Shown here piece after piece: positions 9,793 to 56,615 of a stretch of DNA of 59,054 nucleotides. The notes beneath the pieces are model-generated. The model worked only from the letters and a program-made list of their open reading frames with translations. It had not been told where the DNA came from and did not search any database. The stretch covers positions 1 through 59,054 of the forward strand of contig JBAXKC010000016.1 in the NCBI GenBank assembly GCA_037137535.1, written 5' to 3'. This stretch comes from a bacterium (GTDB lineage: Bacteria; Cyanobacteriota; Vampirovibrionia; Gastranaerophilales; JBAXKC01). Position 1 is the stretch's first letter; every line of letters begins with the position of its first letter. A program made the translations under genes and the position numbers.

Positions 9793-9821
9793 ATATAAAA
9801 CCATTAAATAATAAAAATTTC
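9793..9821 (-). promoter_or_regulatory. Conserved bipartite upstream motif, site 1
   Basis: GAAATT-N13-GGTTTT-ATAT, 28 nt before the ATG at 9764. Confidence 0.55.
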
Positions 9822-9942
9822 TATAAATATAAGTAATGTAAAAAACTTTACTTAAAACTCTCTTTTCTTTATAAACACTTTAAATCTGTCTCATGTCATG
9901 ATAAAAATTAATATAAGGTTTTATTTCAATTGGAGATGAACA

Positions 9943-10230
9943 TTGATTACCGTAAAAGAAGCAGAAAATGTCGCTAAACTTGCCAGATTGGCTTTAGCAG
10001 ATGATGAAAAACAAAAACAGGCAGATCAAATGGGTAAACTTCTTGATTATTTTAATTTATTGAATGAAGTTAATACAGAAAATGTTGAACCTATGGCTCA
10101 GGCTATACCTAAAATTAACGTTATGAGAGATGACGTTATGGTTCAAAATTTTACAAGAGAAGAGCTTTTAGCTAACGCTCCTTTAGAGGAAGACAGCTAT
10201 TTTAAAGTTCCTAAAATCTCAGAAGAATAA
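9943..10230 (+). CDS. gatC: Asp-tRNA(Asn)/Glu-tRNA(Gln) amidotransferase subunit C
   Basis: VAKLARL, MRDD and LANAP...YFKVPKI. Confidence 0.95.
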   Translation: MITVKEAENVAKLARLALADDEKQKQADQMGKLLDYFNLLNEVNTENVEPMAQAIPKINVMRDDVMVQNFTREELLANAPLEEDSYFKVPKISEE

Positions 10231-10397
10231 ATTTTAAAAATATTATTAAATTTACGCAATTTTATATAATTATGAACATTACATGAATTAAAACAATTTA
10301 TTGGGTTGCTCGGGCAATTCTTGTATAATTGTTTTAAGTAAAATTTAGCTTTGTTATTTAAAGCTAATGCTCAGGAATAAGGAATAGAAGGTTATTT

Positions 10398-12029
10398 ATG
10401 ACTACCAAGTATATTTTCGTCACAGGTGGTGTGGTTAGTTCTTTAGGAAAAGGAATAGTTGCTGCATCTTTAGGTAAACTTTTAAGGGCAAGAGGTTATT
10501 CCGTAACAATTCAAAAATTTGATCCTTATATAAACGTTGACCCTGGAACTATGAGTCCATTTCAGCATGGTGAAGTTTTCGTAACCGAAGATGGAGCTGA
10601 AACTGATTTAGATTTAGGACATTATGAACGTTTCATTAATACTGATTTAAGCAAAGTTAACAATGTAACCGCAGGAAGCATCTATCTAAATGTAATCACT
10701 AAAGAAAGAAAAGGCGATTACCTTGGTGCGACTGTGCAGACAATTCCTCATATAACAAATGAAATTAAGAGTAAAATCAAAGAAGTCGGTAAAACTAAAC
10801 CTGATTTCGTTATTACTGAAGTTGGCGGAACTGTCGGGGATATTGAAAGTTTACCTTTCTTAGAAGCTATCAGACAGTTTAAAACCGAATCAGGATTTGG
10901 AAACGTTGTTTCTATCCATGTTACTTTAGTTCCTTATCTTGACGTTGCAGGAGAGCTTAAAACTAAGCCTTCTCAGCATAGTGTAAATACATTAAGAAGT
11001 ATCGGTATTCAACCTGATATTCTTGTTTGCAGAAGCTCAAAAGCTATTCCTAAGAGCGATAGAAAAAAATTAGCATTGTTTACAAGTGTTCCTGTTGAAG
11101 CTGTAATCGAATGTAAAGATTTAAAATCTATTTATGAAGTGCCAATTGCTCTTGAAGAACAAGGCTTACCTAGAGAAGTATTAAAAAGACTTTGCATAGA
11201 AGATAAAACACCAAATCTTGATACATGGAAAAATTTATTAGACAGAATTAAAACAGCAGATAAAACTGTTAGAATTGGTCTTGCGGGTAAATATACAAAA
11301 CTTTCAGATGCTTATATCTCAGTAGTAGAATCTTTAAAGCATGCAGGTGCTGCTCTTGGTGCAAATATCGAGCTTAAATGGATTTGCTCCGAAGAATGTG
11401 TTGATCTTAATAAAGCATATGCAGCTTTAGAAGATGTTGACGGCGTTGTTGTACCTGGTGGATTTGGTTTCAGAGGTATCGAAGGTAAAATCAACGTAAT
11501 CAAGGTTGCCAGAGAAAAGGATATACCATTCTTAGGTCTTTGTTTAGGTATGCAATGTGCTGTTATTGAGTATGCTCGAAATGTGGCAGGACTTGATGAA
11601 GCTAACAGTACCGAATTTTTCCCTGAAAGTCCTAACCCTGTTGTTGATTTAATGCCTGATCAGGAAGGCTTTACAGATTACGGTGGTACTATGCGACTTG
11701 GTTCGTATGAGTGTCATACTCTAAACGGGTCAAAAACGCAGGAAGCCTATGGTTCTGCTGTGATTACCGAAAGACACAGACATAGATATGAAGTAAATAA
11801 CAGTTTCAGAGAAACTCTTTCCAATGCAGGATTAGTGTTCTCAGGTTTATCTCCAGACGGAAGACTTGTTGAAATTGTTGAACTTCCAGAGAAAAAATGG
11901 TTCGTTGCAAGTCAATTCCATCCAGAATTTAAGTCAAGACCGGAAAATCCGCATCCGTTATTTGTTGGACTTGTTAAAGCAGCAGTAGGAGATAAAGTAA
12001 ATGAACCGGAATTACAGCAAGTTACTTGA
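10398..12029 (+). CDS. pyrG: CTP synthase
   Basis: [28 protein letters not shown] and QFHPEF. Confidence 0.98.
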
Positions 12030-12390
12030 TTTAGCAAAAGAAGCCTCAGCAAACGCTTATAATCCTTACTCAAAATTTAACGTAGGGGCAGCTGTGTTAT
12101 ATGAAGACGGGACAATTTATAAAGGTTGTAACGTTGAAAATGCCAGCTATGGTTTGTGTTTGTGTGCGGAAAGAAATGCTCTTTCTACTGCAATAGTGGA
12201 AGGAAATAAAACAAAACCTGTTGCTGTTGCAATATACAGCCCGAACACAAAATTGTGTTATCCTTGCGGTGCTTGCAGGCAATGGATTGCAGAATTCAAT
12301 TATGCGGCAGATATTATTTTAGAAGATGAAAATTCAGAAGTTGTTGTTTATAATATTTCTGAACTTTTACCAAAAAGTTTTTATCTGTAA
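12001..12390 (+). CDS. cdd: Cytidine deaminase
   Basis: [21 protein letters not shown] and PCGACRQ. Confidence 0.96.
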
Positions 12391-12416
12391 AATAAATTAA
12401 TTTTTATACTCATAAA

Positions 12417-12454
12417 AAAATCCCTTATCTGAAAATTTACAGATAAGGGATTTT
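12417..12454. terminator. Bidirectional terminator between cdd and the TRL-like genes
   Basis: aaaatcccttatctg...cagataagggatttt between convergent genes. Confidence 0.8.
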
Positions 12455-55062: not shown

Positions 55063-55725
55063 TTAAACTTTGAATGAGTGAGACTTAGCCATTAACAGGA
55101 AATCATTCATTTGTACAGGCTGTTTAATTGTCTTTACAGGTGGTTTAAGTTCATTAATTACTGATGGTTTATTAATAGTTTTACCAGTGTCAAATTTAGC
55201 TTTTGGCTCTAATTTAGGTTGTTCGTTTAAAAGATTTTTATTTTTATTCATATGATTTTGAAAAATTGCTGCCAGTTTATTTCTCGCAAAGGGAGTAACA
55301 AGGCATGTTGCAAGAATAGAACCAGTCATACTGAATATAACACCGACTCCTGCTTTATATTGTTTAAGAGCATCGCCTACTTGTGGAGTTTTAGAGAAAA
55401 TTTTACCATTATCAACCAAGTATTTTCCGAAATCACCGGCTGATTTAGTAAGTGCCAGATATAAACCTGCATTAAGAACAGCATCAATAGCTTCTTGAGG
55501 TAGAAGAAAATTTTTCTTTTCTTCTGAAATATTTTTATTTTGCTTAATGGAAATAAGTTGACAGGCAGATGAAGCTATTGTTGTTGCTAAATACGTCCAA
55601 GTTAAAAGATTAACCTTATTTTCTGGAGATTTACAATAATAATCAGCAACTCCACTAATAGCATTTTTAGTATACTCAGTTGCCGGTTTAATAAAATTTT
55701 TCATGCTTTCGAGTATATTATTCAT
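55063..55725 (-). CDS. Hypothetical membrane protein
   Basis: Start at the ATG at 55725 after AGGAG; hydrophobic segments flank NKNISEEKK. Confidence 0.7.
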   Translation of the reverse strand: MNNILESMKNFIKPATEYTKNAISGVADYYCKSPENKVNLLTWTYLATTIASSACQLISIKQNKNISEEKKNFLLPQEAIDAVLNAGLYLALTKSAGDFGKYLVDNGKIFSKTPQVGDALKQYKAGVGVIFSMTGSILATCLVTPFARNKLAAIFQNHMNKNKNLLNEQPKLEPKAKFDTGKTINKPSVINELKPPVKTIKQPVQMNDFLLMAKSHSFKV

Positions 55726-55726
55726 A

Positions 55727-56287
55727 CTATTTCTTAGCTCCTTGCTTTGGTTTTTCAGCAACATTGAAAAACTTTAGTGAAGCATTAATTACCGGATTTG
55801 TTAAAGGCTTATCAATTAAGAAAGTAGAGATAACTGTACCTATACAGCCGACGAAGGTGCTTACACCTTTCTTAAAGTCTTCTGCTTGATCCATATTGAA
55901 CTCTTTAGGTATTTTGATAAAGGCTTTTTCTGATTGTGCTATAAAACTTGGCCATTTAGTTAAAGCTGTTCCAAATAAATATCTCGTAAGAACACCCATT
56001 CCTGTACCAATGAGAATTTTTACGCCTGTTTTAATTGCTGAATATTTTCTTGTTTCTTCGTCCACATTTTTATTATTTAAATCAATAAAGGGTTGAGTGG
56101 CTATTGCAGCCAAGCCCAAAACTCCTCTTTGATGCCATCCTTCCATTCCACCGGTACTTTTTATAAAGCTATCAACAAAACCATCAGGAGTTTCAATAGT
56201 AATTGGTAATTTGGCAACCTGAGCTTTGAGATTTTGCTTAATCCCACTTATAAAATTATTTCCACCTGATACGCCTTGTATACTCAA
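55727..56287 (-). CDS. Hypothetical membrane protein (distant paralog of the downstream gene)
   Basis: TTG at 56287 after GGAGAG; hydrophobic segments flank NKNVDEETR. Confidence 0.7.
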   Translation of the reverse strand: MSIQGVSGGNNFISGIKQNLKAQVAKLPITIETPDGFVDSFIKSTGGMEGWHQRGVLGLAAIATQPFIDLNNKNVDEETRKYSAIKTGVKILIGTGMGVLTRYLFGTALTKWPSFIAQSEKAFIKIPKEFNMDQAEDFKKGVSTFVGCIGTVISTFLIDKPLTNPVINASLKFFNVAEKPKQGAKK

Positions 56288-56337
56288 TACTTTTCTCTCC
56301 AAGAAGAATAACAAATAATATTTTTTATACTCATGTT

Positions 56338-56366
56338 TATTAAGTTTAAAAGTCTACACTAATTGC
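56338..56366 (-). promoter_or_regulatory. Conserved bipartite upstream motif, site 7
   Basis: GCAATT-N13-AAACTT-AATA(AACATG); shares TTAATAAACATG with site 5 at identical spacing. Confidence 0.55.
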
Positions 56367-56586
56367 CCTTAATAATAATAATTAACGCATGCTTTTACAA
56401 TTGTTAATATAAAAATAAAGTTATATTGTATTTCAAATCCTAAAATATGGCTATTTGAAAGAACTGTTAGAGCCTTAAAAGACTATGGATAGAGATTATA
56501 TAAAGGATTAATTACTGAAACACCTTGCATTCAAGCATTCTTCATCATACTATTAACAAATTATTATTAAAAGAAAGATTATTGTG

Positions 56587-56615
56587 CCAATTTTTTGTCT
56601 TAGGATTATTTAATA
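56587..56615 (+). promoter_or_regulatory. Conserved bipartite upstream motif, site 8 (degenerate)
   Basis: CCAATT-N13-TTATTT-AATA, 65 nt before the ATG at 56681. Confidence 0.4.

What the first reader, a model, noticed from the sequence alone, without database searches (positions are those of the whole stretch)
9793..56615. Fixed-spacing DNA motif GCAATT-N13-TGTTTT-WWTA defines a hidden regulon
Seen, 8 sites, each co-oriented and 25-65 nt upstream of a start codon: 9793-9821(-) GAAATT/GGTTTT; 15195-15223(-) GCAATT/AGTTTT; 15279-15307(+), 32326-32354(-) and 35637-35665(-) GCAATT/TGTTTT; 43721-43749(+) TCAATT/TGTTTT; 56338-56366(-) GCAATT/AAACTT; 56587-56615(+) CCAATT/TTATTT. The spacer is 13 nt in each, equivalent to GCAATT-N17-TTWWT. 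Five of the eight targets carry the SF-type leader; the others are a HEXXH protein, a c-di-GMP enzyme and a membrane protein pair. I did not see it before housekeeping genes. It matches neither the sigma70, FliA nor sigma54 consensus. Inference: the -35/-10 promoter of an uncharacterised alternative sigma factor controlling the putative effector programme.
Basis: partly seen in the sequence, partly recalled or inferred. Interest (0 to 1): 0.85.

Follow-up and report, generated by a model that had tools for sequence, protein, structure and literature searches.

The report
Promoter motif of a hidden sigma regulon
A fixed-spacing DNA motif in front of more than a hundred mostly unknown genes of this freshwater relative of cyanobacteria looks like the promoter of a so far undescribed flagellar-type sigma factor, which gives a handle on a large gene programme that nobody has studied.

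Summary
The other 4 score in the background range. Genome-wide, GCAATT-N13-TGTTTT occurs 46 times, against 1-14 at other spacings. The refined consensus is (A/G)GCAATTtt-N11-TGTTTTTATATAnAT-A/G. There are 107 sites of at least 20 bits (0 in a simulated genome). Of these, 106 lie outside long ORFs and 96 of 104 are co-oriented with the next gene; the conserved purine lies a median 41 nt before the start codon. tRNA genes carry TTGACA-N17-TATAAT instead, and flagellin and related genes carry canonical sigma-28 promoters, so this is a third promoter class. The motif is kept in 50 of 50 sampled genomes of five other Vampirovibrionia families and is nearly missing in 70 genomes of six families. The best candidate reader is a pair of divergent FliA/WhiG-like sigma factors missed by Pfam region 2. 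One follows flhB directly, and it has the same phyletic pattern. Most target proteins (54 of 68 scanned) have no Pfam family. None of 67 has a Sec-like leader, and they are enriched for a shared N-terminal motif. No transcription start data could be obtained, so the sigma assignment remains an inference.

The parts
15279..15318 (+). Strong motif site (27.5 bits). -35 box at 15279-15284, -10 box at 15298-15309, predicted +1 at A 15313.
15334..15754 (+). Target of site 15279+. Small gene with an xSFK-type N-terminus; it reads 36 codons and then continues in another frame (15488-15754), an apparent frameshift near an A-run.
   Evidence: read by eye from the printed sequence; not tested further
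32315..32354 (-). Strong motif site (31.1 bits), predicted +1 at A 32320.
31404..32297 (-). Target of site 32354-. 297-aa protein with an HEXXH motif and no Pfam family.
35626..35665 (-). Strong motif site (28.0 bits), predicted +1 at G 35631.
33750..35573 (-). Target of site 35665-. GGDEF plus HD-GYP-type (HD_5) c-di-GMP enzyme with a GTG start.
43721..43760 (+). Motif site of middling strength (20.0 bits, TCAATT in the -35 box), predicted +1 at A 43755.
43781..45580 (+). Target of site 43721+. 599-aa protein with an xAFT-type N-terminus and a membrane segment, no Pfam family.
9782..9821 (-). Weak match (10.1 bits, background range) before gene 9078-9764(-); not confirmed as a site.
15184..15223 (-). 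Weak match (8.4 bits) before gene 13397-15151(-); not confirmed as a site.
56327..56366 (-). Weak match (8.8 bits; -10 box AAACTT) before genes 55727-56314(-) and 55063-55764(-); not confirmed as a site.
56587..56626 (+). Weak match (8.6 bits) before gene 56681-58015(+); not confirmed as a site.

Best explanation
The motif is the promoter of an alternative sigma factor. RNA polymerase carrying that sigma would contact a -35 element (A/G)GCAATT and a -10 element TGTTTTTAT(ATA) and start at the conserved purine 7 nt further on (position 35 counted from the G of GCAATT), giving leaders of about 20-70 nt. It drives at least about 100 transcription units in this 2.95-Mb genome, 4 of them in the window. 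The layout is a 7-nt -35 box, 14 nt, then an 8-nt -10 box that begins with G, with +1 six to seven nt later. This is the layout of sigma-28 promoters, but the bases differ throughout. The most likely reader is a pair of divergent FliA/WhiG-like sigma factors outside the window. sigX1 is G000:C21:48383-49069(+), 228 aa, directly downstream of flhB. Its paralogue sigX2 is G000:C1:313261-313896(+), 211 aa. Shown: the motif, its spacing, position, orientation and conservation across families; its distinctness from the housekeeping and sigma-28 promoters; the existence, fold and phyletic pattern of sigX. Inferred: that transcription starts at position 35, and that sigX reads the motif.
For: The spacing peak is 46 at N13 against 1-14 at other spacings. 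The score distribution is bimodal: 143 sites of at least 16 bits against 6 simulated, 107 of at least 20 bits against 0, spread over 40 contigs, with 106 of 107 distinct sequences. 106 of 107 sites lie outside ORFs of at least 100 aa. 96 are co-oriented against 8 anti-oriented, with a median of 41 nt to the start codon. Position 35 is a purine in 107/107 sites and position 34 a pyrimidine in 95/107. GCAAT-N15-GTTTT is the strongest AT-rich dyad in intergenic DNA, 62 against 5.3. Housekeeping promoters differ: 18 of 31 leading tRNA/tmRNA genes match TTGNNN-N16-18-TANNNT, against 12% of shuffles, and none carries the motif. Canonical CTAAAGTTTT-N11-GCCGATAA promoters exist, for example before flagellin C11:19608. 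The motif is found in f2 24/24, f3 2/2, f6 14/14, f10 9/9 and f12 1/1 genomes. It is found in only 6 of 70 genomes of f4, f5, f7, f8, f9 and f11, with one copy each. The reversed-pattern control gives 0-1 per genome. In motif-negative genomes TGTTTTTATA is no more frequent than its reversed control. Other sigmas drop out. SigF-like is present in negative families and weak or not found in several positive f6 genomes. The 297-aa group-2-like sigma, the C7-type ECF and the C48-type have clear relatives only in f2 or f2 and f3. Genome G041 (f6, 14 exact sites) has only RpoD, a C17-type RpoD-like sigma and FliA by Pfam region 2. The C17 type keeps the RpoD -35 recognition residues, and FliA keeps the canonical helix. 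sigX1 and sigX2 surfaced through region-4 hits. They score over the cut-off for TIGR02937 (69 and 67 bits, cut-off 42.9) and best match FliA/WhiG below its cut-off. They align over their whole length to A. aeolicus FliA. The AF2 model's listed Foldseek matches (ranks 1-50) are all sigma factors. sigX1 is 53-75% identical in 50/50 genomes of the motif-positive families. Only 26-39% homologues occur in f5, f7, f8 and f11, and there is next to nothing in f4 and f9. The -35 recognition helix reads SRVTRIVQ in sigX1 and SRVSRIIQ in sigX2, ESRVCQLH in FliA, and SRVSHMI in the f5/f8/f11 homologues. The flhB-sigX1 neighbourhood is kept in 3 of 6 further sigX1 loci fetched (f2, f3, f10). The sigma-28 layout (-36 TCTAAAG -30, -15 GCCGATAA -8) is taken from passages of PMC12784957.
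Against: No transcription start was obtained. Only assembled RNA contigs were on hand, and one RNA-library contig (35101-35787) bridges the predicted +1 at 35631. No motif copy stands before sigX1, sigX2 or any other sigma gene, so there is no sign of autoregulation. The phyletic match is shared by FliA and may partly reflect common descent of the positive families. Similarity of SigF-like does not follow the same family order, which argues against a trivial effect. The f7 homologue has an X1-like region-4 helix, yet the motif was found in only 1 of 9 f7 genomes. The base that would correspond to the flipped -11 A of sigma-28 and sigma-70 promoters is an invariant T here, which has no precedent that I know of. 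Binding of sigX to core polymerase or to DNA is not shown. Which of the two paralogues acts, or whether both do, cannot be told.
Confidence: 0.6

Rival explanations
1. The housekeeping or a group-2 sigma reads a TATATA-like -10 box, and GCAATT is the site of an activator bound at -35 (a class II activator), so the regulon belongs to a transcription factor and not to a sigma.
For: TATATA/TATAAA at positions 26-31 resembles TATAAT, and a TG lies upstream. Genome G041 has few sigma factors. Regulators (RHH, MerR) are among the targets.
Against: With a -10 box at 26-31 the conserved purine at 35 lies only 4 nt downstream. The position matching T-7 is A in 73% of sites. A single 6-7 nt box with neither dyad nor repeat is unusual for an activator. 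The invariant TT at 24-25 and G21 would have no role. In motif-negative relatives the -10 part disappears together with the -35 part.
Confidence: 0.15
2. Another sigma factor reads the motif: the canonical-looking FliA (G000:C23:27569-28414), one of the group-2-like or ECF sigmas, or one not recognised at all.
For: FliA shows the same family pattern: E <= 1e-72 in 50/50 genomes of the positive families and weaker or none elsewhere. One flagellin (C6:76647) has a CTAAAG -35 box with a TACTTTATATA-like -10 box, as seen by eye.
Against: FliA keeps the canonical DNA-reading residues, and canonical sigma-28 promoters are present. SigF-like, the 297-aa sigma, the C7-type ECF and the C48-type fail the phyletic test. 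No sigma-54 DNA-binding domain was found in the genome.
Confidence: 0.15
3. It is not a promoter but a dispersed repeat or a chance feature of AT-rich intergenic DNA.
For: The genome is 31% G+C. At up to 2 mismatches the window count equals chance. A few sites are duplicated together with their genes (C12 and C15 pairs).
Against: Spacers and flanks are unrelated, and 106 of 107 sites are distinct. There are 0 sites of at least 20 bits in a simulated genome. Spacing is strict. Orientation and distance to genes are strongly biased. The motif is conserved across families before unrelated genes.
Confidence: 0.02

Closest known systems
Sigma-28 (FliA/SigD/WhiG) promoters, TAAA-N15-GCCGATAA
   Same: The layout is the same: a -35 box of about 7 nt, 14-15 unconserved nt, an 8-nt -10 box beginning with G, and a start 6-7 nt later. 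Compare -36 TCTAAAG -30 and -15 GCCGATAA -8 in passages of PMC12784957. The candidate reader is a FliA/WhiG relative encoded in a flagellar gene neighbourhood.
   Different: The consensus bases of the two boxes differ at nearly every position. The CGA core, which passages of PMC12871210 describe as highly conserved in the WhiG1/WhiG2 consensus sequences, is TTT here. The position of the flipped -11 A is an invariant T. Canonical sigma-28 promoters coexist in the same genome. The targets scanned carry no flagellar Pfam family.
WhiG1/WhiG2 paralogues of Actinomycetota
   Same: These are paralogous sigma-28-family factors with diverged -35 boxes (CTCA against TAAA) and non-flagellar regulons (passages of PMC12871210).
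   Different: There the -10 core stays GCCGA, whereas here both boxes have changed. The proteins here fall below the FliA/WhiG family cut-off (78 against 189.6 bits).
Housekeeping sigma-70 promoters with an extended -10 box (TGnTATAAT)
   Same: A TG lies 14-15 nt before the presumed start, followed by a T/A-rich -10 region.
   Different: There is no TTGACA. The -11 position is T and not A. The organism's own tRNA promoters show the ordinary consensus.
Flagellar co-expressed determinants of Campylobacter jejuni (non-flagellar proteins under sigma-28, some exported through the flagellum)
   Same: As a model only: non-flagellar proteins without Sec leaders under a flagellar-type sigma. The details are recalled; of the papers I saw only a search listing.
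   Different: Nothing here shows export. The regulon is far larger, and a separate sigma and promoter are used.

Membership tests
Bacterial sigma-70-family promoter (bipartite -35/-10) | Two conserved boxes at fixed spacing | tested here: met
   46 copies at N13 against 1-14 at other spacings; matrix
Bacterial sigma-70-family promoter (bipartite -35/-10) | Lies upstream of genes and is co-oriented with them | tested here: met
   106/107 sites outside ORFs; 96 co-oriented against 8 anti-oriented, median 41 nt
Bacterial sigma-70-family promoter (bipartite -35/-10) | Transcripts start a few nt after the -10 box | not testable with these tools
   Only assembled RNA contigs were available. A conserved pyrimidine-purine step at positions 34/35 is the only hint.
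Housekeeping promoter TTGACA-N17-TATAAT | Consensus hexamers | tested here: not met
   The matrix shows GCAATT and TGTTTTTAT. tRNA genes carry the ordinary consensus.
Sigma-28 promoter TAAA-N15-GCCGATAA | Consensus bases, above all the CGA core of the -10 box | tested here: not met
   Positions 22-25 are T in 85-100% of sites. Canonical copies exist elsewhere in the genome.
Sigma-28 promoter TAAA-N15-GCCGATAA | Box lengths and distances | tested here: met
   Positions 0-6, 14 nt, positions 21-28, purine at 35, compared with -36..-30 and -15..-8 in PMC12784957
Sigma-54 promoter (GG-N10-GC) | -24/-12 boxes and a sigma-54 gene | tested here: not met
   The motif differs. No Sigma54_DBD was found in the genome.
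Sigma-70 protein family (for sigX1/sigX2) | Regions 2 and 4 and a sigma fold | tested here: met
   TIGR02937 scores 69.1 and 67.1 bits against a cut-off of 42.9. Sigma70_r4 is over its cut-off. Full-length alignment to FliA 1rp3. The listed Foldseek matches (ranks 1-50) are all sigma factors, though TM is only about 0.3 because the domains are placed differently. Pfam Sigma70_r2 was not detected.
FliA/WhiG subfamily (for sigX1/sigX2) | Score over the curated cut-off of TIGR02479 | tested here: not met
   77.9 and 56.1 bits against a cut-off of 189.6. The recognition helix differs from FliA.

The most novel reading that the evidence does not exclude
sigX1, co-located with flhB, couples a regulon of 100 or more genes to the flagellar export apparatus. 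The regulon's proteins lack Sec leaders, share an N-terminal S-[IV]-F / x-S-F-x-G motif and include lipases, peptidases, a phosphatase and a zeta-type kinase. They would be a secretome exported through the flagellar type III machine or an unknown route. This would be a conserved effector-like programme of non-photosynthetic cyanobacterial relatives, gut Gastranaerophilales included, with a sigma whose -10 reading breaks the rule of a flipped -11 A.
Probability: 0.2. Interest if true: 0.85.

Novelty: new variant of a known kind. Interest (0 to 1): 0.6.

Why it matters
In two full-text searches I found no paper on promoters or sigma factors of Vampirovibrionia (Melainabacteria). One search held 2 papers and held 58, of which 10 were listed; I saw the listings only and none looked relevant. 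This motif defines, from sequence alone, a conserved regulon of about 100-140 transcription units, roughly 4-5% of the genes. Most of them are family-less proteins. It also points to a sigma subfamily that standard domain models miss. That makes a large block of unknown genes in an uncultured lineage, gut members included, sortable into one co-regulated programme. It also makes the work testable with a simple reconstituted system. If the -10 reading is as inferred, it adds an unusual specificity to the sigma-28 family.

Tried and rejected

**Exact housekeeping consensus.** Counts of exact TTGACA-Nx-TATAAT showed no spacing peak. I therefore read the housekeeping promoter from tRNA upstream regions instead.

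**Dyad scan.** The first scan was swamped by two CRISPR arrays and was repeated with them subtracted.

**RNA evidence.** One search found two metatranscriptome runs of the sample that may be the source of this DNA. They are kept as contigs, which cannot show starts, ends or strand. Parts of 26-36 kb and 42-45 kb are covered and 36-42 kb is nearly not. I draw nothing from the uncovered part.

**Autoregulation.** No motif copy of at least 10 bits lies directly upstream, on the same strand, of the nine sigma genes found by Pfam region 2. None lies before sigX1 or sigX2. None lies before a sigma gene in the fetched sigma loci of other genomes.

**Sigma candidates set aside by phyletic pattern.**
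- SigF-like
- the 297-aa group-2-like sigma
- the C7-type ECF
- the C48-type

**Phage-type polymerase.** The PF00940 search found nothing, but its control rang nowhere, so it says nothing.

**The family beginning MGLAASQ.** The Atlas look-up returned only Melainabacteria hypothetical clusters.

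
Full report
**What the window is.** The window is the whole contig C16 of a 2.95-Mb, 81-contig genome with 31% G+C. The closest named relatives of its GroEL are Gastranaerophilales, Vampirovibrio and 'Melainabacteria' genomes at 73-83% identity. The organism is therefore a non-photosynthetic relative of cyanobacteria (class Vampirovibrionia). 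Runs labelled freshwater metagenome hold the DNA. Genes were called with a crude ORF caller of my own, so counts that rest on gene calls are approximate.

**The observation.** The genome settles the matter.
- Exact GCAATT-N13-TGTTTT occurs 46 times. It occurs 1-14 times at every other spacing from 5 to 25.
- The 46 copies share further bases that were not asked for.
- An iterated weight matrix gives (A/G)GCAATTtt-N11-TGTTTTTATATAnAT-A/G.
- The scores are bimodal. There are 143 sites of at least 16 bits and 107 of at least 20 bits. A third-order Markov copy of the genome gives 6 and 0.
- Four lie at 8.4-10.1 bits, where real and simulated genomes differ little. Co-oriented intergenic sites of that strength do outnumber anti-oriented ones, 90 to 38, so these four may be weak promoters. 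That cannot be shown here.

**Promoter-like behaviour.**
- Of the 107 sites of at least 20 bits, 106 lie outside ORFs of at least 100 aa, although only 15.6% of the genome does.
- 96 point at the next gene's start and 8 at a gene's end. The median distance from position 35 to the start codon is 41 nt, with an interquartile range of 31-71.
- Position 35 is A in 89 sites and G in 18. Position 34 is a pyrimidine in 95 of 107. This is the usual look of a start site.
- The sites lie on 40 contigs and 106 of 107 are distinct sequences, so this is not a dispersed repeat.
- After two CRISPR arrays were removed, GCAAT-N15-GTTTT is the strongest AT-rich spaced pair in intergenic DNA, 62 against 5.3.

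**A third promoter class.**
- Upstream of tRNA genes the ordinary TTGACA-N17-TATAAT is plain to see. 18 of 31 leading tRNA/tmRNA genes match a loose form of it, against 12% of shuffles. None has the motif above 11.7 bits.
- Canonical sigma-28 promoters of the form CTAAAGTTTT-N11-GCCGATAA also exist. One stands before a flagellin gene on C11, and another before a member of a small coiled-coil family that elsewhere carries the new motif.
- No sigma-54 DNA-binding domain was found.

**Conservation.** I searched GCAATT-N13-TGTTTTTAT in 121 genomes of the class, with the reversed pattern as control.

| Families | Genomes with the motif | Copies per genome |
|---|---|---|
| f2, f3, f6, f10, f12 | 50 of 50 | 1-39 |
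| f4, f5, f7, f8, f9, f11 | 6 of 70 | 1 each |

- G000 itself has 33 copies.
- The reversed control gave 0 in all but two genomes, which had 1 each.
- In four motif-negative genomes the -10 part alone is no more frequent than its control.
- In family f2 the motif stands before, among others, an M16-type peptidase with the same kind of N-terminus, a LysM protein and the coiled-coil family (the domain names are read by eye from the printed sequences).

**Which factor reads it.** Pfam region 2 finds nine sigma genes: RpoD, three RpoD-like sigmas, one SigF-like, one FliA/WhiG and three ECF sigmas. The phyletic profiles over the same 121 genomes give the following.
- SigF-like is present in motif-negative families and is weak or not found in several positive f6 genomes.
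- The 297-aa RpoD-like sigma and the C7-type ECF have clear relatives only in f2 and f3.
- A further small sigma-like gene on C48 was found in f2 only, among five genomes tested.
- Genome G041 (f6, 3 contigs, 14 exact sites) has by region 2 only RpoD, a C17-type sigma and FliA.
- The C17 type keeps RpoD's -35-reading residues.
- FliA keeps the canonical helix, and its canonical promoters are present.

A search with region 4 then showed two more genes in G000, and their relatives in f6.
- sigX1 is C21:48383-49069, 228 aa. It lies 32 nt after flhB.
- sigX2 is C1:313261-313896, 211 aa and 45% identical to sigX1. It lies beside a two-component system.
- Both pass the sigma-70 superfamily model and come closest to FliA/WhiG without reaching its cut-off.
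- Both align over their full length to A. aeolicus FliA.
- sigX1 folds into sigma domains 2 and 4 with mean pLDDT 73.5, and the linker is of low confidence. All listed Foldseek matches (ranks 1-50) are sigma factors.
- sigX1 is 53-75% identical in 50 of 50 genomes of the motif-positive families. The best homologue in f5, f7, f8 and f11 is 26-39% identical. f4 and f9 have next to none.
- In a phylum-wide sample sigX1 is again found in f2 (50/50). Outside the class there are only 27-29% matches, in two families.
- Public protein sets hold more than 100 clusters at 70-93% identity, named at most 'sigma-70 family'.
- The -35 recognition helix is SRVTRIVQ in sigX1 and SRVSRIIQ in sigX2. It is ESRVCQLH in FliA and SRVSHMI in f5, f8 and f11.
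- flhB stands directly before sigX1 in 3 of 6 further loci fetched.

**Geometry.** I take G21 as the counterpart of G-15 of GCCGATAA, and positions 0-6 as the counterpart of -36 TCTAAAG -30 (passages of PMC12784957). The two boxes and the start then fall in the same register as in sigma-28 promoters. The bases differ, including the CGA core. Passages of PMC12871210 describe that core as highly conserved in the WhiG1 and WhiG2 consensus sequences.

**Caveats.**
- FliA shows the same family pattern as sigX1.
- The positive families may be one clade. SigF-like similarity does not follow that family order, so the pattern is not merely overall relatedness, but descent is not excluded.
- The f7 homologue has an X1-like helix, yet the motif was found in only 1 of 9 f7 genomes.
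- No sigma gene has the motif in front of it.
- RNA contigs cannot give starts, and one contig bridges a predicted start.

**The regulon.** I scanned 68 target proteins. These were the 60 best-scoring of 94 non-window targets plus 8 window targets.
- 54 have no Pfam family at E <= 1e-4.
- The rest are RHH (twice), MerR, GGDEF+HD-GYP, FHA, EF-hand, CHAP, a weak PPPDE match, class-3 and GDSL lipases, a dual-specificity phosphatase, a zeta-toxin-type kinase, a PRK-type kinase and a PPIase.
- Among 67 targets of at least 100 aa, 24 carry one of two N-terminal motifs in their first 75 residues. Among 2319 other ORFs, 184 do (odds ratio 6.5, p = 3.5e-10). The same patterns are rare further inside the proteins (1/56 and 2/56).
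- None of the 67 has a Sec-like N-terminus by a crude pattern, against 401 of 2319 other ORFs.

**Verdict.** This is a real, conserved and previously undescribed promoter class. It most likely belongs to a divergent flagellar-type sigma. Four of the eight listed sites belong to it.

Noticed in passing
G000:C13:58299-61971 and G000:C41:19084-22294 (outside the window): Two CRISPR-like arrays of 56 and 50 copies of a repeat of about 36 nt, with a period of 66 nt.
   Followed up: partly
window 15334-15754 (+): The gene behind the strong site 15279+ stops after 36 codons and seems to go on in another frame (15488-15754). This is a likely frameshift or an assembly error near an A-run.
   Followed up: no
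window 21807-30933 (+): Five consecutive genes whose products begin with the same kind of N-terminal x-[SA]-F-x motif. The first (1179 aa) has a Peptidase_M15 domain and the other four have no Pfam family. No motif site of at least 8 bits lies before this row, so the leader also occurs outside the regulon.
   Followed up: partly
G000:C1:105794(-), C4:50595(+), C4:50756(+), C4:111169(-), C9:31778(-), C22:34963(+): Six near-identical canonical sigma-28 promoters that share the same downstream bases. My simple gene finder found no ORF behind them. They may drive a small RNA or a small-protein family.
   Followed up: no
G000:C9:24181, C15:44882, C15:46512, C62:8061; also G030:C3 (L090:121-636): A Melainabacteria-only family of short coiled-coil proteins with a conserved N-terminus. 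Some members sit behind a canonical sigma-28 promoter and others behind the new motif.
   Followed up: partly
Genome-wide intergenic DNA of G000: A palindromic repeat of the form TCGATG-N8-CATCGA occurs about 37 times. A second element of about 40 nt (GCTTC-N16-TTTGT and neighbouring pairs) occurs about 25-35 times. Neither is explained.
   Followed up: no
Ends of contigs C10, C27, C28, C41, C49, C62, C63 of G000: The same stretch of about 40 nt stands within 50 nt of seven contig ends. It is probably a multi-copy element that broke the assembly.
   Followed up: no
window 1053-3014 (-) and 7827-9068 (+): A Maf-type flagellin glycosylation gene and an HDOD-domain protein. Seven flagellin-like genes lie elsewhere in the genome, so the organism is probably motile.
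   Followed up: partly
L108 (G064:C1:62672-65890), positions 1092(-) and 529(-): In an f10 genome two motif sites stand divergently upstream of the FliA gene and drive genes on the other strand.
   Followed up: no
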